A DNA stretch of 64,000 bases from an uncultured Clostridium sp. (GTDB taxonomy: Bacteria; Bacillota_I; Bacilli_A; RF39; UBA660): positions 6,162-70,161 of the forward strand of contig CABULC010000005.1 of the NCBI GenBank assembly GCA_902492325.1. Reading direction: 5' to 3'. Shown here in pieces: positions 5,411 to 59,388 of the stretch; position 1 is the first letter of the stretch; the number at the start of each line of letters is the position of its first letter. Under the pieces are notes generated by a model, which ran no database searches, had not been told where the DNA came from, and saw only the letters and a list, made by a program, of their open reading frames with translations. The translations under genes were made by a program, and so were the position numbers.

Positions 5411-6664
5411 ATGAAAAATAGAAATGGTTTTACATTAGTTGAATTACTTGCAGTCATTGCAATTTTAGCAATACTTGTAATAATAGCGCTTCCTAATGTA
5501 ATAAATATGTACAATAAAGCGCAAAAAGAAACATTTTTAACAGAAGCAAAGAAAGTGTATAGTGAATCAGAAAAGAAGTTTATATCAAATTCTATAAGTA
5601 ACAAGCAAACAAAAATTATAAATTCAGAAGATAGTACTAAACTTGATATGACAGGAAAAAAACTTCAATATTGTGTTATTCTAAATAATAGTGGAAAAGT
5701 AACTAGTATGAAGGTATCTAATGGTAAATGGATAGCAAGTTTAGATAATAACAAAACTGTTGATAAATTAACTATAGATGATTTAGAAGAAGGAAATTTA
5801 GATAACTATGAATGTGGTAGTCAATCAGTAGATTCTAATTCTTATAATTGTACTTTTAATGGAAATATGGTACAAGGTGCCGAATTTATTGATGGTAAAT
5901 ATACCTATAGATACATGCAAAAAGTAGGATATAATGTTACTGAAAAAGGAATTATAACTTGGGTTAATATATCAACTGATGGCTGGGGAGTTAGTCTTAC
6001 TGATAAAAATAGTACTGAAATGGTAAGCGGTAAAACATGCTCAACTATAAATAATATACCAATAGTTTCAATGTCTTATATGTTTTTTGATAGTAATGCT
6101 TCTACAGTTGATGTAAGTGAATTCGATACCAAAAATGTAGTTGATATGCAAGGAATGTTTGATGGCAGTCAAGCAACAGTAATAAATGGCTTTGAAAATT
6201 TTGATACTAGTAATGTTGCAAATATGAGAGATATGTTTTATGATAGTAAAGTAGTAACTTTTGATTTAAGTAGTTTTGATACAAGTAACGTAACTAATAT
6301 GAGGTATATGTTTTATAATAATAAAGCTTCAAAATTAGAATTAGCAAATTTTAATACTAAAAATGTAACTGATATGTCTGGTATGTTTTATCAAAGCGAA
6401 GCTTCTATAATTGATATAAGTGGTTTTGATACAAGTAATGTTACTGATATGAGTTATATGTTTGAGAATACTAAAAATCTTAAAACAATATATGCAAGTG
6501 ATAAATTTATAACTAACAAAGTTACTAGTAGCACTAATATGTTTTCTAGTTCGATTAATCTAGTTGGTGGTGCAGGTACTATATATAATAGTTCTAAAAC
6601 TGATAAAACATTTGCAAGAATAGATGGTGGAACATCAAGCCCAGGATATTTTACTAAAAAGTAA
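5411..6664 (+). CDS. prepilin-type N-terminal (class III signal) protein with DUF285/BspA-family repeats
   Basis: MKNRNG^FTLVELLAVIAILAILVI: short basic leader ending in Gly, Phe+1, Glu+5, hydrophobic helix (type IV pilin/pseudopilin signature). C-terminal half has ~24-aa repeats F(D/N)TSNVT(D/N)M..MF typical of DUF285 (BspA-type LRR surface proteins). RBS AGGTGA upstream. Confidence 0.75.
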   Translation: MKNRNGFTLVELLAVIAILAILVIIALPNVINMYNKAQKETFLTEAKKVYSESEKKFISNSISNKQTKIINSEDSTKLDMTGKKLQYCVILNNSGKVTSMKVSNGKWIASLDNNKTVDKLTIDDLEEGNLDNYECGSQSVDSNSYNCTFNGNMVQGAEFIDGKYTYRYMQKVGYNVTEKGIITWVNISTDGWGVSLTDKNSTEMVSGKTCSTINNIPIVSMSYMFFDSNASTVDVSEFDTKNVVDMQGMFDGSQATVINGFENFDTSNVANMRDMFYDSKVVTFDLSSFDTSNVTNMRYMFYNNKASKLELANFNTKNVTDMSGMFYQSEASIIDISGFDTSNVTDMSYMFENTKNLKTIYASDKFITNKVTSSTNMFSSSINLVGGAGTIYNSSKTDKTFARIDGGTSSPGYFTKK

Positions 6665-14877: not shown

Positions 14878-14954
14878 GTCCATGTAGCTCAGTAGGATAG
14901 AGCAATCGCCTCCTAAGCGATAGGTCGTTGGTTCGATTCCAATCATGGACGCCA
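14878..14954 (+). tRNA. tRNA-Arg (anticodon CCT)
   Basis: 77-nt cloverleaf. 7-bp acceptor stem GTCCATG/CATGGAC, anticodon stem ATCGC/GCGAT with loop CTCCTAA (anticodon CCT), T-arm GTTCGATTC, encoded 3' CCA. Confidence 0.9.
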
Positions 14955-26670: not shown

Positions 26671-26728
26671 AGAGTAATCTTTACTTTTTTAATTGTAATA
26701 AAAAATTAGTATGATATAATTAAAATAG

Positions 26729-28507
26729 GTGAATGATGTGAAAAATAAAAATGGATTTTCTTTAATTGAATTGCTTGGAGTAATTGCGATAGTTGCAATT
26801 TTAACGTTAATGACTGTTCCTGCAGTTTTAGAAATATATAATAAGAATGTAATAAAGAGTATGCATATACAAGAAACTGAGATTAAAGATGCTGCTAATT
26901 TATTTGTAGAAGATTATTGTAAAACTTCAATTGATCAGACTAAGATTTGTCCTAAGAGTTATAGTACTGCAGTTAATAATAAGAAAACTGTTTGTCTTAA
27001 AGACCTTCAAAATAAATCAGATAAATATATTGATACGGTTAAATATAAAGGCTCTGATTGTAAATGATATGTTACATATTATTTAGATTCTGAAACTGGT
27101 GTCTATGGAAATGAAAAAACATATTTATTTTGTGGTAGGGGTGAAGACAATACTTATGCATATATGACTGATAGTAATTATGATCATAAAGAGTATTGTA
27201 AGTGTAGTGATGATGAGAAAATATGTGGTTCTTCTTATCCATTACTTTATAATGTTTTAAAAAATGAAGAAGAAAATGGCGGTTTAGTAAAAAAATATGA
27301 TGGTATTCATAATGATTCTTATAATGAAACTGGAAATAAAGATATATATTATTATAGAGCTGAAACAAATGATGATGTAAATAAAATATTAAATAAAAAT
27401 AATGTGCTATTTGGAAACTATTGTTGGCAAATAATAAGAACTACAGATATGGGTGGTGTTAGGTTATTATATAATGGTGAACCAAATGTTGTTGATGGAA
27501 AAAAACAATGTTATAATGATACAACAATTCGTTCAATTGGAAAATCAAAATTTAATGATGGGTATGATTCTATTGGCTATGTTGGTTATATGTATAATAA
27601 AAGTGAAACAGAAAAATACAAGTACACTTATAAAAAAATGATTGATGTTCAAGGGTCATCTTATACATTTAAATATTCTACTAGTTTTGATTATAAGAAT
27701 GGTGTATATACTTTAAAGGATGACATAAAAGAGATTAAGGCCGCTTATCCAGGCAATGTTAAAAATAGACATTATACTTGTTTAAGTGATTCTGAAACTT
27801 GTAAAAATGGAGAAATATATTATATTACTGGTTTTGAATATGATGGTGATGATTGGCATCTATACTATATAACATTGAAAAATGGAAATAGTGTTGAAGA
27901 TGCATTGAATTCTATGCTGTATAATGATGTTAATAAAGATGATTCATCAATAAAAAAATATATTGATAATTGGTTCGAACAAAAATTATTAAATTTTTCT
28001 GATTATTTAGAAGATAGTGTTTATTGTAATGATAGAACTATTATTGATTATAGTAATTGGGATTCTAAAAGTAATTGTACTTCTTTTGGTTCAGCTTACG
28101 AAACTTTAAAATTTAAAAATTATAATTTAAATAATGATCTTTATTGTACAAATATTACTGATAGATTTAGTGTTAATAATAATAAAGCTAAATTGAAATA
28201 TCCTATTGGATTAATTACTCTTCCTGAATTATATTTACTTAAAGACGGTTCCACATCTGCTCCTTATAGAGAAGGATTTTATACAATGTCTCCTTTAAGA
28301 TCCTTTAATTATAGTGAATTAGTTAATGGTTCGTTATTTGGTAACAATTATTTTCAGGCACCTAATAATTATTATTTAACTATAGGAAGTAGTGCGAGTA
28401 TAGAGACTTATGTACGTCCTGTTATAACACTTGCTTCTAATACTGAATATTTAAAAGGAGATGGAAGTTCTACTAATCCATATATTATTATTACTGATAA
28501 CAAATAA
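26729..28507 (+). pseudogene. prepilin-type N-terminal surface protein gene interrupted by an in-frame nonsense codon (TGA at 27065-27067)
   Basis: ORFs 26729-27067 and 27164-28507 are in the same frame. The first ~110 aa are ~75-80% identical to the N-terminus of the 53206 protein. At the stop position the paralogue has GGA (Gly, 53542-53544), so the change is GGA->TGA. Likely start is GTG 26738 (VKNKNG^FSLIELL) after AGGTGA. Confidence 0.7.
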
Positions 28508-28521
28508 TTTTAAAAAAGGGG

Positions 28522-28550
28522 TTTACATTTTAAAAATAATATTGTATAAT
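28522..28550 (+). promoter_or_regulatory. sigma-A type promoter of the rplJL operon
   Basis: -35 TTTACA (28522-28527), 17-bp spacer, extended -10 TGtTATAAT (28542-28550). Confidence 0.6.
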
Positions 28551-28556
28551 CTAATT

Positions 28557-28662
28557 CGTGAAGTGACCAAAGACAGTAAGTACAGAAGTAAATCTTACCG
28601 AGGAAACAATGAATAATGACGATTATTATGAGTTTCCTTGTCATGAGGAAACTTTTTAATTT
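28557..28662 (+). promoter_or_regulatory. ribosomal protein L10 leader (autoregulatory attenuator)
   Basis: Untranslated leader before rplJ. Terminator hairpin GAGTTTCCT-tgtcatg-AGGAAACT + TTTTT (28630-28660). Upstream GAGGAAAC (28600-28607) can alternatively pair with GTTTCCTT to form an anti-terminator. This matches the L10(L12)4-controlled attenuation leader of Firmicutes. Confidence 0.6.
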
Positions 28663-28677
28663 ATGAAAGGAGACTAT

Positions 28678-49342: not shown

Positions 49343-50584
49343 ATGATTTTAAGTATATGTTCTAATCCTGAAGTGCTAGAAGTTATGAGAATTGTTAATA
49401 TGGCAATATTGATAATTAAAATAACTGTTCCAATATTATTAATAGTTATTGGTATGGTAACGTTAATGAATACAATTAAAGTTGGTAATGAAGATTTACT
49501 AGCTAAAGCTAAAAAACAACTTATTAATAATTGTATTGCAGCAATGATTATATTTTTAATACCAACTCTTGTTAGTGTAATAGTTAGAGTAAGTGATACT
49601 AATAATCAATACAGAGCTTGTTTAGATGCTGATGTAACAATGATAAATGATGCATATATATCAAGAGCTGAGAATTTAGTATCTAAAGCTGAAGAAGCAA
49701 AAACATACAATGATTATTATGCTGCTAAAAAAGCAGTAGATGGATTGAAAAATGAAAGTGATAGAGCTAGTTTTAGTTCAAGATTAAATGCTGTATATGA
49801 AATAATTAAGGCAGATATTGAAAAAAACAATAATAATGAAGATGAAAATAGTGGTGGCGTAGGTTCTAGTGATGATGGAAGCGGAAGTACTACGGGTAGT
49901 AATTTAAATGTTAGTGCTGGTTCATCTGAATATACTGGAGTAGGAAGTATTACTAAATATACTTTGTTTGTTCCAAAAAATGCCAAAGAAAATATGCCAT
50001 TGATAGTTATGTTACCTGCTAGTAACGGGGACTATAGTGCTGCTGTTAATGAATTTAAAAATATGAAACTTGAAAATGATTTAGCATTTATGATGGTTGT
50101 TTATCCTAGTGGTAACTATTCTTCACAAGCATATAGCGATATTAAAACTACAGCTGATGAAGTTGTTAATAAATATAAAATAAACAAAAATAAAATTGGT
50201 GCTTCTGGATTTAGTTCTAGTGGGACATATGTGTATCATTTAGTTGTGAATAATCAAGGTTATTTTCATAGTATGGTTCCTATAAGTTCAGGAGTAAGTT
50301 CATCGGATAAAATTTTAAAAGATAACTTAGATTATTTAAAAACATTAAATATTAAAGGTTATGGTGAAAATGGTGGAGCATATGATTCTAATGGTAAAAA
50401 ATGTGCTGGATGGACTAATTGGTCACCATCTAATTCAATGACAAGTGCATTTAATGCTTTAGGCAAATCAAATAATTTTGTTAATCTTGGAAAGATATGC
50501 CATAGTAATGTTAGAAGTTATGTTTTTAATTTAGATGAAAATAATAATAATCGTTCTGATTATATAGAATGGTTTACTAAATAG
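49343..50584 (+). CDS. membrane-anchored modular protein: shared N-terminal 2-TM/coiled-coil module plus alpha/beta-hydrolase(esterase)-like C-terminal domain
   Basis: 413 aa. First ~185 aa are nearly identical to the 58300 protein. Gly/Ser/Asp-rich linker. C-terminal ...LIVMLPASNG...IGASGFSSSG... suggests an esterase fold (weak). Confidence 0.5.
   Translation: MILSICSNPEVLEVMRIVNMAILIIKITVPILLIVIGMVTLMNTIKVGNEDLLAKAKKQLINNCIAAMIIFLIPTLVSVIVRVSDTNNQYRACLDADVTMINDAYISRAENLVSKAEEAKTYNDYYAAKKAVDGLKNESDRASFSSRLNAVYEIIKADIEKNNNNEDENSGGVGSSDDGSGSTTGSNLNVSAGSSEYTGVGSITKYTLFVPKNAKENMPLIVMLPASNGDYSAAVNEFKNMKLENDLAFMMVVYPSGNYSSQAYSDIKTTADEVVNKYKINKNKIGASGFSSSGTYVYHLVVNNQGYFHSMVPISSGVSSSDKILKDNLDYLKTLNIKGYGENGGAYDSNGKKCAGWTNWSPSNSMTSAFNALGKSNNFVNLGKICHSNVRSYVFNLDENNNNRSDYIEWFTK
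49360..49891 (+). repeat. dispersed repeat copy 1 (~530 bp, ~99% identical to 58318-58850)
   Basis: Direct comparison of the two 5' gene segments shows only ~8 mismatches over ~530 bp. Confidence 0.85.
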
Positions 50585-53160: not shown

Positions 53161-53214
53161 TTTACCTTTTTATTTTGCTTAGCAACGTGTTATAATTCAT
53201 AATAGGTGAAGCAT

Positions 53215-55113
53215 ATGAAAAATAAAAATGGATTTTCTTTAATTGAATTGCTTGGAGTAATTGCGATAGTTGCAATTCTTACTTTAATGGTTGTACCAGC
53301 TGCTATTAAAACCTATAATGAAAATGTTATTAAAGCAATGCATGTACAAGAAAATGAAATGAAGGAAGCGGCAAATTTATTTGTAGAAGACTATTGTAAG
53401 AATTCAATTGATCAAACTAAGATTTGTCCTAAGAGTTATAGTACTGCAGTTAATAATAAGAAAACAGTATGTCTTCAAGATCTTCAAAAGAGTAGTGATA
53501 AATATATAGATGGTATTAAATATAAGGGTTCTGATTGTAAAGGATATGTTACTTATTATTTAGATTCTGAAACTGGTGTGTATGGTAATGAAAAAGCATA
53601 TTTATTTTGTGGATTAAATGAAGATGGTTCTTTTGATTATGCTACAAGTAAAGATTATGATTATAAAGAATATTGTAGTTGTAGTGATGATGAAATATGT
53701 AAGGAGAAAACTGAAAGAGTTTATTGTAAATTTGATGGTGACTTGAAACAAGGCGCTGAGTATGTCAATGGTCAATATACTTATAGATATAAACAAGCTG
53801 GTGTTAGAAGTGATGATGATCTTGCATGGAATAATTTTTCAAAAGATGGATGGGGAGTACAACTTACAGATAAAACTAGTACTGAACCAGTAACTAGTAA
53901 AGTATGTACATATATAAATGATAAACCAGTTATCGCTATGTCTAATATGTATAGTGATAGTAAGGCTACAAGTATAGATTTAAGTAGTTTAAATACAGCA
54001 AAAGTTGATAATATGAGTTATATGTTTGCATCTAGTGCTGCAACTGATTTAGATGTTAGTTTCTTTAATACAAGTAATGTAACTCTTATACATAGTATGT
54101 TTAATGGAAGTAAAACAACTACTTTAGATGTAAGCGGATTTGATACAAGTAAAGTAACAAATATGGGTAATATGTTTAGAGGTGTTTTAGTTGAAACCTT
54201 AGATTTAAATAATTTTAATACTTCTAATGTTATATATATGGATAACATGTTCTTTGGAAGTAAAATGATTTCATTAGATCTTTCAAGTTTCAACACTTCT
54301 AATGTAACGACTATGTATGGAATGTTTTGGGGTTCATCAGCGACTGATTTAAATCTTAAGAGTTTTGATACAAGCAAGGTTAAATCAATGTCATTTATGT
54401 TTAGAGGTGCTTTAGCTGAAAATTTAGATTTGAATAATTTTAATACAAGTAATGTCGCTGATATGGGGGGAATGTTTGAAGGTGCTAAAGCTAAAACATT
54501 GGATTTGAGTAATTTTAATACTTCAAAAGTTAAAAATATGTATTTAATGTTTGATGGCGCTGAAGCAGAGAATTTAGATTTAACAAGTTTTGATACAAGT
54601 AATGTAACTGATATGAGTTCTATGTTTAGATTTTCAAAAGCTAAAAAAATAGATGTTTCAAGTTTTGATACAAGTAATGTAACTAGTATGTTTCTTACAT
54701 TTGCTCAATGTTCTGCGACTGAGGTTGATGTTAGCAAGTTCAATACTAGTAATGTTAAAAATATGGGAAGTATGTTTCATTCAAGCAATATAATCAATTT
54801 GGATGTAAGCAACTTTGATACAAGTAATGTTACTAATATGGCGTCAATGTTCTATTATAGTAAGTCAAAAACTTTAGATGTTAGTAAATTTAATACTGAA
54901 AAGGTTACTGATATGAGCGCGATGTTTCAAGGAAGCAATGCAGAATTATTAGATTTAAGTAATTTTAATATTGATAATGTAACTAATATGAATATAATGT
55001 TTAGTGCAGCTAAAGCAACTACTGGATATGCAAAAGATGATCCAACTGCAGCTAAGTTTAATGACAGTAGTGTTACTAAAATACCAAGTACACTTAAATT
55101 TACTGTTAAATAA
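53215..55113 (+). CDS. prepilin-type N-terminal protein with pilin-like Cys-containing domain and DUF285/BspA-family repeat array
   Basis: MKNKNG^FSLIELLGVIAIVAILTL (class III signal). ~130-aa N-terminal domain shared with the 26729 pseudogene. Then ~15 tandem ~24-aa F(D/N)TS(N/K)V..M..MF repeats. AGGTGA before ATG 53215; the track start is GTG 53206. Confidence 0.8.
   Translation: MKNKNGFSLIELLGVIAIVAILTLMVVPAAIKTYNENVIKAMHVQENEMKEAANLFVEDYCKNSIDQTKICPKSYSTAVNNKKTVCLQDLQKSSDKYIDGIKYKGSDCKGYVTYYLDSETGVYGNEKAYLFCGLNEDGSFDYATSKDYDYKEYCSCSDDEICKEKTERVYCKFDGDLKQGAEYVNGQYTYRYKQAGVRSDDDLAWNNFSKDGWGVQLTDKTSTEPVTSKVCTYINDKPVIAMSNMYSDSKATSIDLSSLNTAKVDNMSYMFASSAATDLDVSFFNTSNVTLIHSMFNGSKTTTLDVSGFDTSKVTNMGNMFRGVLVETLDLNNFNTSNVIYMDNMFFGSKMISLDLSSFNTSNVTTMYGMFWGSSATDLNLKSFDTSKVKSMSFMFRGALAENLDLNNFNTSNVADMGGMFEGAKAKTLDLSNFNTSKVKNMYLMFDGAEAENLDLTSFDTSNVTDMSSMFRFSKAKKIDVSSFDTSNVTSMFLTFAQCSATEVDVSKFNTSNVKNMGSMFHSSNIINLDVSNFDTSNVTNMASMFYYSKSKTLDVSKFNTEKVTDMSAMFQGSNAELLDLSNFNIDNVTNMNIMFSAAKATTGYAKDDPTAAKFNDSSVTKIPSTLKFTVK
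53221..53613 (+). repeat. dispersed repeat (~390 bp, ~85% identical to 26743-27135): pilin-like 5' module
   Basis: Nucleotide-level comparison of the 5' ends of the two prepilin-type genes. Confidence 0.75.
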
Positions 55114-58241: not shown

Positions 58242-58299
58242 GTATAGAATACTTATATTTTTTATGTTAAAATTTAATTATACGATAAGAGGTGTTAAT

Positions 58300-59388
58300 A
58301 TGTTAGTTATGTCTATATGTTCGGTTCCTGAAGTGTTGGAGGTTATGAGAATTGTTAATATGGCAATATTGATAATTAAAATAGCTGTTCCAATATTATT
58401 AATAGTTATTGGTATGGTAACGTTAATGAATACAATTAAAGTTGGTAATGAAGATTTACTAGCTAAAGCTAAAAAACAACTTATTAATAATTGTATTGCA
58501 GCAATGATTATATTTTTAATACCAACTCTTGTTAGTGTAATAGTTAGAGTAAGTGATACTAATAATCAATACAGAGCTTGTTTAGATGCTGATGTAACAA
58601 TGATAAATGATGCATATATATCAAGAGCTGAGAATTTAGTATCTAAAGCTGAAGAAGCAAAAACATACAATGATTATTATGCTGCTAAAAAAGCAGTAGA
58701 TGGATTGAAAAATGAAAGTGATAGAGCTAGTTTTAATTCAAGATTAAATGCTGTATATGAAACAATTAAAGCAGATATTGAAAAAAACAATAATAATGAA
58801 GATGGAAATAGTGGTGACGTAGGTTCTAGTGATGATGGAAGCGGAAGTACAGTCACAAGTGGTGGAGTTAAAAATGTTTCTGGAACTATTTATATGGGTG
58901 ACTCTAGAACTAATGGATTAAAATTATATGGTGATTTATCATCTGATGAGCAAGTATTTGCGACTGATGGTGGAGGATATAATGAATTTCTTGGACATAT
59001 AACTAGTGTTAACAATGTTTTGAGTGATGGTAAAAGCTATAATATAGTACTTAATTATGGTGTTAATGATTTAAGTAATTCATCTAAATATTGTGAAAAA
59101 TATAAATCATTTATAAACGATGTTAATTCTAAAAACAATGTATATGTAATGTCTGTAAATCCAGTTAATGATAGTGGAAGTAAATATGCTAAAAATTCTA
59201 GTATAGAATCATTTAATTCTTCTATTAAATCTTGTATTTCTGGACTTAAGAATGTAAAATATTGTGATGTATATGGAAGTGCATCAATAAGTGATTGGAC
59301 AAGTAAATATATAAGTAGTGATGCAATACATTATACAAGTGATGGATATAAATACATACATTCTAAAATAAAGTCATGTATGGGATAG
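58300..59388 (+). CDS. membrane-anchored modular protein: shared N-terminal module plus SGNH/GDSL hydrolase domain
   Basis: N-terminal ~185 aa almost identical to the 49343 protein. C-terminal SGNH blocks: block I IYMGDSRTNG, block V DAIHYTSDGY. GAGGTG RBS before ATG 58300; the track start is 58264. Confidence 0.65.
   Translation: MLVMSICSVPEVLEVMRIVNMAILIIKIAVPILLIVIGMVTLMNTIKVGNEDLLAKAKKQLINNCIAAMIIFLIPTLVSVIVRVSDTNNQYRACLDADVTMINDAYISRAENLVSKAEEAKTYNDYYAAKKAVDGLKNESDRASFNSRLNAVYETIKADIEKNNNNEDGNSGDVGSSDDGSGSTVTSGGVKNVSGTIYMGDSRTNGLKLYGDLSSDEQVFATDGGGYNEFLGHITSVNNVLSDGKSYNIVLNYGVNDLSNSSKYCEKYKSFINDVNSKNNVYVMSVNPVNDSGSKYAKNSSIESFNSSIKSCISGLKNVKYCDVYGSASISDWTSKYISSDAIHYTSDGYKYIHSKIKSCMG
58318..58850 (+). 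repeat. dispersed repeat copy 2 (~530 bp, ~99% identical to 49360-49891)
   Basis: See copy 1. Confidence 0.85.

What the first reader, a model, noticed from the sequence alone, without database searches (positions are those of the whole stretch)
53215..55113. Type IV prepilin signal fused to a ~600-aa BspA/DUF285 repeat ectodomain
The N-terminus MKNKNG^FSLIELLGVIAIVAILTL is a textbook class III (prepilin peptidase) signal, normally found on 100-150 aa pilins and pseudopilins. Here it precedes a ~130-aa Cys-containing pilin-like domain and about 15 tandem 24-aa F(D/N)TSNVT.M..MF repeats (DUF285, annotated elsewhere as BspA-family LRR surface protein). This would be a pilin-anchored or pseudopilus-displayed adhesin of unusual size. 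No pilB/pilC/pilD or comG genes are in the window, so the assembly machinery must be elsewhere. Three such genes occur within 50 kb (5411, 26729, 53206).
Basis: partly seen in the sequence, partly recalled or inferred. Interest (0 to 1): 0.8.

Follow-up and report, generated by a model that had tools for sequence, protein, structure and literature searches.

The report
Type IV pilin carrying an LRR-like adhesin
This gene from an uncultured human-gut bacterium joins a pilus-subunit head to a long leucine-rich-repeat-like rod, most likely so that a pilus can display a sticky domain; the design is already catalogued in the literature but has never been studied.

Summary
Window 53215..55113 (+) encodes a 632-aa protein in four parts:
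- a class III (prepilin) signal, MKNKNG^FSLIE, which passes the Pfam N_methyl and TIGR02532 cut-offs;
- a pilin head of about 160 aa;
- a conserved cap of about 75 aa;
- 14 exact 25-residue PARCEL/DUF285 repeats (not 24 aa, not 15) plus a half unit.

The head alone has 122 relatives at the 50%-cluster level. Most are ordinary 120-220-aa pilins, and 115 of 121 scanned carry N_methyl, so this is a genuine pilin scaffold.

It is a modular type IV pilin in the sense of Raynaud et al. 2021. Their dataset already lists N_methyl-DUF285, so I rate it a new member of a known kind.

"Three such genes" is only partly right. Gene 5411 is one. Gene 26729 has the same head but a different, unnamed cargo, and an in-frame TGA.

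No pilus machinery lies in the window or in 27 related loci (368 kb). Assembly therefore remains inferred.

An extra finding: in related genomes the same cargoes also sit on BsaA/TasA-type fibre modules.

The parts
53188..53196 (+). Extended -10-like element TGtTATAAT upstream of gene A. A similar TGaTATAAT lies upstream of paralog C.
   Evidence: Read by eye. The consensus scan did not call it because there is no -35 at 16-18 nt. Low confidence.
53204..53209 (+). Ribosome-binding site AGGTGA, 5 nt before the ATG at 53215. It argues for ATG 53215 as the start rather than GTG 53206.
   Evidence: Sequence. The same AGGTGA-N5-start layout is seen at paralog C.
53215..53232 (+). Leader peptide MKNKNG (residues 1-6) of the class III signal. 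Predicted prepilin-peptidase cleavage is after Gly6.
   Evidence: N_methyl and TIGR02532 are above their cut-offs. In 30 homologues Gly6 is nearly invariant and Phe7 and Glu11 are invariant.
53233..53694 (+). Mature pilin module (residues 7-160): hydrophobic alpha1N, a long alpha1 helix, a Cys-rich loop and a 4-stranded beta-sheet head.
53695..53913 (+). Conserved cap or adaptor (residues 161-233), with motifs C.FDG....GAEYVNGQYTYRY and DGWGVQLTDK.ST.PVTSK.C. It forms the N-terminal cap of the solenoid.
   Evidence: pLDDT is 91-97 in the full-length model. Invariant columns are C171, G175, G180, G186, Y190, Y192, Q194, W205, G212, W213, G214, V215 and C231. The cap is shared with paralog B and with BsaA/TasA-type and Flg_new-type fusions.
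53914..55038 (+). PARCEL/DUF285 array: a half unit (residues 234-258) plus 14 canonical 25-residue repeats (259-608). The consensus is FNTSNVTxMxxMFxGSxAxxLDLSx. The array is predicted to be an LRR-like solenoid.
55039..55113 (+). C-terminal tail (residues 609-632, DPTAAKFNDSSVTKIPSTLKFTVK) and TAA stop. It has no LPXTG motif and no hydrophobic anchor.
   Evidence: Translation. The model is low-confidence at 598-632. The same tail occurs in homologues P0066, P0090 and L076.
5411..6664 (+). Paralog B: 417-aa modular pilin with a different, ComG-like pilin head, the same cap, about 6 PARCEL repeats and the alternative C-terminal cap.
   Evidence: N_methyl scores 33.4 bits and DUF285 119 bits. 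Mature residues 1-30 are 22-27/30 identical to the standalone pilins compared (P0220, P0157, P0204, P0150, P0143, P0178).
26738..28507 (+). Paralog C: the same pilin head as A fused to an unnamed cargo of about 430 aa. It is interrupted by an in-frame TGA at 27065-27067.
   Evidence: The cargo has no Pfam hit. Intact orthologues P0302 (589 aa) and P0304 (592 aa, 541 member sequences) have Gly at that codon.

Best explanation
Gene A encodes a modular type IV pilin.

Proposed mechanism, all of it inferred unless marked as shown:
- The precursor inserts into the membrane through its class III signal.
- A prepilin peptidase, encoded elsewhere in the genome, cuts after Gly6 and methylates Phe7.
- The hydrophobic alpha1N helix, with the conserved Glu at mature position 5, lets the subunit join a type IV filament (T4P or Com-type) built mainly of small pilins of the same lineage.
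- The bulky C-terminal module (cap plus 14 PARCEL repeats, an LRR-like solenoid) cannot pack in the filament core. It is most likely presented at the tip, or as a rare subunit, beyond the cell wall, where it acts as a ligand-binding adhesin.

The gene belongs to a multi-copy, fast-changing repertoire of orphan modular pilins in an uncultured, spore-forming, low-GC Bacilli lineage of the human gut. Within that repertoire the heads and cargoes are recombined, the repeat number varies, and copies are often knocked out.

Shown here: the architecture, the family memberships, the predicted folds, the homology of the head to ordinary pilins, and the modular shuffling.

Inferred: cleavage, methylation, filament incorporation, tip location and adhesion.
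For: - The class III signal passes curated cut-offs. Phe+1 and Glu+5 are invariant and Gly-1 is nearly invariant across 30 homologues.
- There is a single N-terminal hydrophobic segment and no C-terminal anchor.
- The head without its signal finds 122 representative clusters. The match nearly always starts at target residue ~26-33, and most targets are 120-220 aa. Of 121 scanned, 115 carry N_methyl.
- B-type modular pilins share 22-27 of the first 30 mature residues with the standalone 124-149-aa pilins compared. Two of these are widespread: P0220 and P0204 are each seen on dozens of contigs.
- The head is a swappable cassette. A and C share it, including the RBS, up to residue ~160 and then diverge completely.
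- The same cargoes are also fused to BsaA/TasA-type fibre subunits. That fits a role as a fibre-displayed payload.
- Precedent: S. sanguinis PilB and PilC modular pilins, and the catalogue that lists IPR012902-IPR005046 (PMC8179133).
Against: - No prepilin peptidase, T2SSE ATPase or platform protein was found in the window or in 27 loci (368 kb) around family members. The existence of an assembly machine in this genome is therefore unproven.
- A's alpha1N differs from the B-type and standalone pilins in about half of its first 30 residues (13-17/30 identical). Co-assembly with them is therefore less obvious for A than for B.
- Family members are often interrupted by stops or frameshifts. That could mean relaxed selection.
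- Nothing is known experimentally about what DUF285 binds.
Confidence: 0.6

Rival explanations
1. It is a membrane-tethered surface protein, not a filament subunit. The class III signal serves only for membrane insertion, with or without cleavage. The protein stays anchored in the cytoplasmic membrane by alpha1N with the LRR rod pointing outward, as with the many N_methyl proteins of PVC bacteria or the archaeal class III-signal binding proteins.
For: The pilin genes are scattered among housekeeping genes and never sit next to assembly genes. There are several copies per genome. The N-terminal helix is the only hydrophobic segment. The genome-contig scan was swamped by N_methyl signals from PVC-type MAGs (Verrucomicrobia, Planctomycetes, Victivallales).
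Against: Glu+5 is strictly conserved, and a complete pilin head is homologous to standalone pilins. Neither is needed for a mere anchor. By inference, a head-plus-rod of roughly 10 nm would hardly clear a Gram-positive wall unless lifted by a filament. The same cargo is also found on BsaA/TasA fibre modules, which points to fibre display.
Confidence: 0.22
2. It is a substrate or component of a Gram-positive T2SS-like or Com-type pseudopilus. A short pseudopilus pushes the LRR module through the peptidoglycan and the module may be released, rather than sitting on a long adhesive pilus.
For: B-type heads give their best named matches to ComGE, ComGC and ComGD, all below cut-off. In C. perfringens a T4P gene set promotes secretion of a protein from the BsaA biofilm-matrix operon (PMC11580942), which links the two fibre systems that share cargo here.
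Against: No ComG operon was seen. All ComG-model scores are far below their cut-offs. No cleavage site between head and cargo is evident.
Confidence: 0.12
3. It is a decaying or non-expressed member of a redundant surface-protein family, a reservoir of sequence variants with no current function for this copy.
For: One of the three copies in the window carries a nonsense codon. The orthologue of A in a syntenic genome has an in-frame TAA. Two further copies in L067 are broken. Roske et al. 2010 proposed that some PARCEL ORFs are reservoirs of variants.
Against: Gene A itself is an uninterrupted 632-codon frame with a good RBS. An intact 788-aa orthologue exists (L076). The signal, head Cys pattern, cap and repeat consensus are all conserved.
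Confidence: 0.06

Closest known systems
Modular type IV pilins, for example Streptococcus sanguinis PilB (pilin + vWA; PDB 7B7P) and PilC (pilin + lectin); Raynaud et al. 2021, PMC8179133
   Different: The cargo here is a 14-repeat PARCEL solenoid with its own conserved cap, not vWA or lectin. The genes are orphan, multi-copy and scattered rather than in a pil operon. No experimental work exists for this architecture.
PARCEL / DUF285 repeat proteins (Roske et al. 2010, PMC2996958), for example the Mycoplasma mycoides lipoprotein LppQ
   Same: Both have a canonical 25-residue amphipathic tandem repeat with conserved hydrophobic positions and variable polar ones. Both have an antisense ORF over the array.
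   Different: The described members are lipoproteins or carry other membrane-targeting signals. The word 'pilin' does not occur in that paper. That paper predicted helical amphipathic structure, whereas AF2 here predicts an LRR-like solenoid.
BspA-type LRR (LRR_5, PF13306) cell-surface proteins of gut bacteria, for example BACOVA_04585 (PDB 4FS7)
   Different: No Pfam LRR_5 hit is obtained for gene A at E <= 0.1. Sequence identity to 4fs7 is 13%.
BsaA/TasA-family SipW-dependent fibre subunits (C. perfringens BsaA; PMC7395162, PMC11580942)
   Same: In related genomes the identical cap-plus-PARCEL cargo (cap 59-74% identical to A's) and the C-type cargo are fused to BsaA/TasA-type N-terminal modules. 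That suggests the same display logic on a second fibre type.
   Different: Gene A has no BsaA/TasA module. Its carrier is a pilin.

Membership tests
Type IV pilin (class III signal peptide protein) | A short basic leader ending in Gly, then Phe+1 and Glu+5, then about 20 hydrophobic residues (N_methyl / TIGR02532) | tested here: met
   PF07963 scores 28.6 bits against 21.2, and TIGR02532 scores 21.2 against 16.3. The sequence is MKNKNG^FSLIELLGVIAIVAILTLMVV. F7 and E11 are invariant and G6 nearly invariant in 30 homologues.
Type IV pilin (class III signal peptide protein) | Pilin fold: an extended N-terminal alpha1 helix of about 50 residues packed on an antiparallel beta-sheet | tested here: inconclusive
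Type IV pilin (class III signal peptide protein) | Head domain homologous to bona fide small pilins | tested here: met
   The head alone (residues 28-165) finds 122 representative clusters. The match starts at target residue ~26-33, and most targets are 120-220 aa. Of 121 scanned, 115 carry N_methyl.
Type IV pilin (class III signal peptide protein) | Cognate prepilin peptidase and assembly ATPase/platform in the same genome | not testable with these tools
   They are absent from the 64-kb window and from 27 related loci. The rest of the genome could not be read.
Type IV pilin (class III signal peptide protein) | Cleavage, N-methylation and incorporation into filaments | not testable with these tools
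   This needs experiments.
Modular pilin (sensu Raynaud et al. 2021) | A pilin module followed by an extra module that matches a domain signature not specific to pilus biology | tested here: met
   N_methyl and head, followed by DUF285/TIGR02167. The architecture is listed in their Dataset S1.
PARCEL / DUF285 (PF03382, TIGR02167) | A tandem array of canonical 25-residue repeats with the conserved hydrophobic pattern | tested here: met
   There are 14 units in exact 25-aa register. PF03382 scores 302 bits against 25, and TIGR02167 scores 254.8 against 30.
Mbov_0838-family PARCEL lipoprotein (NF045896) | Full-length match above the curated cut-off, with a lipoprotein signal | tested here: not met
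   The score is 156.7 bits against a cut-off of 500. There is no lipobox; the N-terminus is a class III signal.
BspA-type LRR (LRR_5, PF13306) | Sequence match to PF13306 | tested here: not met
ComG competence pilins (ComGC/GD/GE/GF/GG equivalogs) | Score above the NCBIfam equivalog cut-off | tested here: not met
   For gene A, ComGE scores 21.4 against 49 and ComGC 17.7 against 75. The matches cover the N-terminal helix only.

The most novel reading that the evidence does not exclude
This abundant, uncultured gut Bacilli lineage may run a combinatorial 'fibre-display' system. A shared library of adhesin-like cargoes would be shuffled by recombination onto at least two unrelated filament-subunit scaffolds. 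The cargoes seen are cap-plus-PARCEL solenoids, the unnamed ~430-aa C-type domain, BspA LRR_5, beta-helix, Flg_new and even flagellin-like helices. The scaffolds are two kinds of type IV pilin head and BsaA/TasA-type subunits. The genes are dispersed as orphan genes among housekeeping loci, and they would be switched by repeat-number change and by frequent stop or frameshift alleles.
Probability: 0.3. Interest if true: 0.6.

Novelty: new member of a known kind. Interest (0 to 1): 0.4.

Why it matters
DUF285/PARCEL repeats have been known since 2000-2010 without any function or solved structure. I found no PDB sequence match for the repeats.

Here the array sits on a pilin head, and in related genomes on BsaA/TasA fibre subunits. 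The predicted BspA-like LRR fold adds to this. Together these give a concrete, testable hypothesis: the array is a filament-displayed ligand-binding module.

For pilus biology, the gene adds a well-defined family with natural head and cargo swaps, in a prevalent human-gut lineage. That makes it useful for asking how bulky modular pilins are incorporated into filaments.

It does not overturn current views, because modular pilins are an established concept.

Tried and rejected
1. The genome-contig scan with the N-terminal alignment A1 was wasted. The pattern FTL[ITV]ELL[AV]VI matched generic class III signals, mostly from PVC-type MAGs. Only two Firmicute loci came back, neither with machinery. 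The organism could not be named beyond 'MAG: Bacilli bacterium'.

3. The search for pilus machinery failed:
- I read 9 contexts with the look-up of encoding contigs.
- I ran one JGI metagenome scan with a head-only alignment.
- I scanned all the loci fetched for T2SSE Walker A and PilD GxGD motifs.
- None was found next to any family member.
- Walking along the contig is not possible, because only window proteins or search hits can be looked up.

4. Alternative genetic code (TGA = Gly or Trp) as the explanation for the in-frame TGA in paralog C: rejected.
- TGA ends two of the 45 large ORFs, and all large ORFs are intact under table 11.
- Other broken family members carry TAA stops or frameshifts.
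- Intact orthologues have Gly at that position.

5. Programmed read-through to set the pilin:adhesin ratio: considered and rejected. The TGA in C lies inside the head, at residue 110, before three of its four strands, not at a module boundary.

6. Recent slipped-strand expansion of the repeats: not supported. Tandem Repeats Finder (TRF) finds no DNA tandem repeat.

7. The exact sequence of gene A is not on record, so its own contig neighbours beyond the window could not be fetched through it.
Full report

Window 53206/53215..55113 (+) is a single uninterrupted ORF. An AGGTGA lies 5 nt before the ATG at 53215, and paralog C has the same layout. I therefore take ATG 53215 as the start, giving a 632-aa product.

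Pfam-A gives two families. N_methyl (PF07963) scores 28.6 bits against a gathering score of 21.2, on residues 1-26. DUF285 (PF03382) scores 302 bits, E 2e-91. NCBIfam gives TIGR02532 'IV_pilin_GFxxxE' at 21.2 against 16.3, and TIGR02167 'PARCEL repeat-containing surface protein' at 254.8 bits in 13 stretches. All ComG, GspG and GspH equivalogs fall far below their cut-offs and match the N-terminal helix only.

A hydropathy scan finds one hydrophobic segment, at residues ~7-30, and nothing above 0.79 afterwards.

A six-frame motif scan finds exactly three class III motifs in the 64 kb, each at the head of an ORF, at 5411, 26738 and 53215.

**2. Anatomy**

The repeat unit is 25 residues, not 24. 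There are 14 units in perfect register with no indel (residues 259-608), preceded by a half unit (234-258). The consensus is FNTSNVTxMxxMFxGSxAxxLDLSx. This is the canonical 25-residue PARCEL unit of Roske et al. 2010 (PMC2996958). At the DNA level the units are too diverged to register as a tandem repeat.

Comparison with the two paralogs defines the module boundaries.
- Paralog C (26738..28507) shares A's first ~160 residues, at 62-100% DNA identity in 60-nt windows from the RBS at ~53190 to ~53690. Identity then drops to background, about 45-55%.
- Paralog B (5411..6664) has a different N-terminal head but shares with A a conserved segment of about 75 residues (C.FDG..QGAEYVNGQYTYRY ... DGWGVQLTDK.ST.PVTSK.C), followed by PARCEL repeats.

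The protein is therefore leader (1-6), pilin module (7-160), cap (161-233), repeats (234-608) and tail (609-632). There is no LPXTG motif or C-terminal anchor.

**3. Predicted structure**

- AF2 on residues 1-252 with 30 homologues gave mean pLDDT 67. It predicts a continuous helix at 9-62 and then strands 82-86, 106-116, 123-134 and 140-143, which is the pilin 'lollipop' topology.
- Foldseek against the PDB found nothing with E below 0.4.
- The full-length model (39 sequences) has mean pLDDT 80.3. The cap is at 91-97 and the repeat blocks mostly at 75-97, falling at the last unit.
- No solved structure matches the repeats by sequence.

**4. Is the head really a pilin?**

The head without its signal (residues 28-165) was scored against 1.84 billion representatives. 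It finds 122 proteins at E <= 0.001. The match almost always begins at target residue ~26-33, just after where a class III signal plus alpha1N would sit. Most targets are 120-220 aa, with a tail of proteins from about 290 to 1461 aa.

Of 121 of these scanned against Pfam, 115 carry N_methyl. Extra domains are DUF285 (8), Flg_new (8), Flagellin_N (3), Dockerin_1 (3), LRR_5 (2), Gly_rich_2 (2), DUF6273 (2) and others.

So A's head belongs to a family that is mostly ordinary small pilins and is repeatedly used as a carrier.

In 30 close homologues Phe+1 and Glu+5 are invariant and Gly-1 is nearly so. This is the signature required for prepilin-peptidase processing and filament assembly (established knowledge of type IV pilins). 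Such conservation is hard to explain if the lineage had no such machinery, but that is an inference.

**5. Family and context**

The window is part of a 74,100-bp contig of an uncultured 'MAG: Bacilli bacterium'. The same LeuRS occurs on a contig from a human-gut metagenome, and relatives occur in Hadza gut samples. The genome is about 26% GC. It uses table 11, with TAA, TAG and TGA ending 31, 12 and 2 of the 45 large ORFs. Related loci carry sporulation genes: SpoIIP, SpoVA and YlbD/E.

A search with residues 1-252 gave 218 hits. N_methyl plus DUF285 is recurrent, appearing in dozens of 90% clusters. NCBI names them 'BspA family leucine-rich repeat surface protein', and JGI 'prepilin-type N-terminal cleavage/methylation domain-containing protein'.

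Orthologues of A vary in repeat number:
- 632 aa here, with 14 repeats;
- 788 aa in L076, about 20 repeats;
- about 840 aa in the syntenic L001 if read through its in-frame TAA.

Pilin genes of this family sit singly among housekeeping genes:
- after a P-type ATPase (A);
- after cdaA-cdaR (C);
- between a sigma-factor gene and an ABC transporter (B);
- near obg, mutL, PFOR or dnaE in relatives.

Other modular pilins in the lineage carry Beta_helix (L002) or LRR_5 (L071).

**6. Machinery**

None of the window's ORFs of at least 140-160 aa looks like PilB/C/D/M/N/O or ComG. Motif scans for the T2SSE Walker A and the PilD GxGD box are negative in the window and in 27 family loci totalling 368 kb. 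The same scans are positive in two unrelated loci fetched by accident, so the patterns do work.

The genome outside these stretches could not be read. The existence of the assembly system is untested, and this is the main gap.

**7. Cargo shuffling**

The cap-plus-PARCEL unit, with a cap 59-74% identical to A's, also occurs behind N-terminal modules that match Peptidase_M73/TasA. Examples are P0041, P0044, P0059 and P0080.

C's unnamed ~430-aa cargo has more than 1200 homologues and no Pfam hit. It occurs behind pilin heads and also behind a full BsaA-family SipW-dependent module in P0401 (TIGR04090 at 86.9 bits against 60).

P0080 lies in a locus (L094) that shares gene order with L068, where a 141-aa pilin sits. 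Both carrier types therefore occur in related genomes.

BsaA/TasA proteins polymerise into fibres (PMC7395162, PMC11580942). Finding one cargo on two kinds of fibre subunit is the best comparative argument that the cargo is meant to be displayed on a filament.

**8. Comparison with what is known**

Raynaud et al. 2021 (PMC8179133) defined modular pilins through S. sanguinis PilB. They counted more than 1,200 proteins in 264 architectures. Their Dataset S1 lists IPR012902-IPR005046 (N_methyl-DUF285; 9 proteins, plus 4 with three DUF285 hits, among other rows) and IPR012902-IPR026906 (BspA LRR; 18).

No paper in the library discusses the DUF285 case. The PARCEL paper never mentions pilins.

The architecture is therefore catalogued but uncharacterised. 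I rate it a new member of a known kind.

**9. Side observations**

- Family members are often broken. The cases are C's GGA-to-TGA change, L001's TAA, and in L067 a poly-A frameshift plus a CAA-to-TAA change. Whether this is contingency variation, decay or consensus error in metagenome assemblies cannot be settled here.
- A second 'same anchor, different cargo' pair flanks gene A, at 49343 and 58264.
- Pilin-flagellin-like chimeras exist in relatives.

**10. Verdict**

The most likely mechanism is a prepilin-peptidase-processed modular pilin that presents an LRR-like PARCEL rod on a type IV filament. My confidence is 0.6. The architecture alone is near-certain; assembly and adhesion are inferred.

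Interest is moderate, 0.4. The class is known, but this family offers a first functional handle on DUF285 and a natural system of head and cargo swaps.

Noticed in passing
window 27065-27067 (within 26738..28507): There is an in-frame TGA in paralog C at the codon where A has GGA. Intact orthologues (P0302, 589 aa; P0304, 592 aa with 541 member sequences) have Gly there. The window copy is a nonsense allele, or a sequencing or consensus error.
   Followed up: yes
L001 10583-10585; L067 1390-2714 and 10001-11541: Other family members are also interrupted. The syntenic orthologue of A has an in-frame TAA in the cap. In L067, one gene has a frameshift in a poly-A run, and another has CAA->TAA at the conserved GQYTYRY motif plus a late frameshift. 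Recurrent inactivation, contingency variation and assembly artefact could not be told apart.
   Followed up: partly
window 27164..28507 (C-terminal ~430 aa of paralog C): This cargo domain has no Pfam or PDB sequence match but more than 1200 homologues. It is found behind pilin heads, BsaA/TasA modules (P0401), Flg_new_2, DUF6273 and Cleaved_Adhesin. It ends in a conserved VRPVITL...GDGS..NPY motif.
   Followed up: partly
window 49343..50584 and 58264..59388: Two genes flanking gene A share a 94% identical N-terminal 186 aa. That shared part has two hydrophobic helices with a weak, sub-threshold T4SS_pilin PF18895 match, and a sub-threshold GA-like linker match in the first gene. Their C-termini are unrelated, and the second has a GDSL-lipase-like match, also sub-threshold. 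This is a second 'shared anchor, swapped cargo' pair.
   Followed up: partly
P0041, P0044, P0059, P0080 (L094 10001-11272), P0401: The same cap-plus-PARCEL cargo and the C-type cargo are fused to BsaA/TasA-type (SipW-dependent) fibre-subunit modules in related genomes. L094 shares gene order with L068, where a 141-aa pilin sits upstream of PFOR and the fusion sits downstream of it.
   Followed up: partly
L085 9923-; L088 6577- and 8593- (tandem); L089 9920-; P0025: Proteins of roughly 390-630 aa join the A-type pilin head to helical segments resembling flagellin. Pfam Flagellin_N hits 3 of 121 head-family representatives, and the motif is YFRSYLGAEQNAYEYR. This is an odd pilin-flagellin-like chimera.
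   Followed up: no
L076 6715- (788 aa) versus window 53215-55113 (632 aa): Orthologues of gene A differ in repeat number, about 20 against 14 units. Contigs L074 and L075 end inside gene B, which shows that these genes break metagenome assemblies.
   Followed up: partly
window 54018..54377 (-): A 119-aa antisense ORF lies inside the PARCEL array and has its own periodic VTLEVLKL pattern. It is most likely the shadow of the dyad symmetry described for PARCEL-coding DNA, not a gene.
   Followed up: no
L002 2904-4601; L071 14418-16043: Further orphan modular pilins occur in the lineage: N_methyl + Beta_helix (565 aa) and N_methyl + LRR_5 (541 aa). The second shares its first 30 mature residues with the standalone pilin P0220.
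   Followed up: partly
window 28549-28668 and 14878-14954: A ribosomal protein L10 leader (Rfam RF00557, 51.4 bits) lies upstream of rplJ. There is also a single tRNA-Arg (CCT).
   Followed up: no
window 26710-26718 and 53188-53196: Extended -10-like elements (TGaTATAAT and TGtTATAAT) lie about 7 nt upstream of the RBS of paralogs C and A. They would imply very short 5' leaders. They were read by eye only.
   Followed up: no
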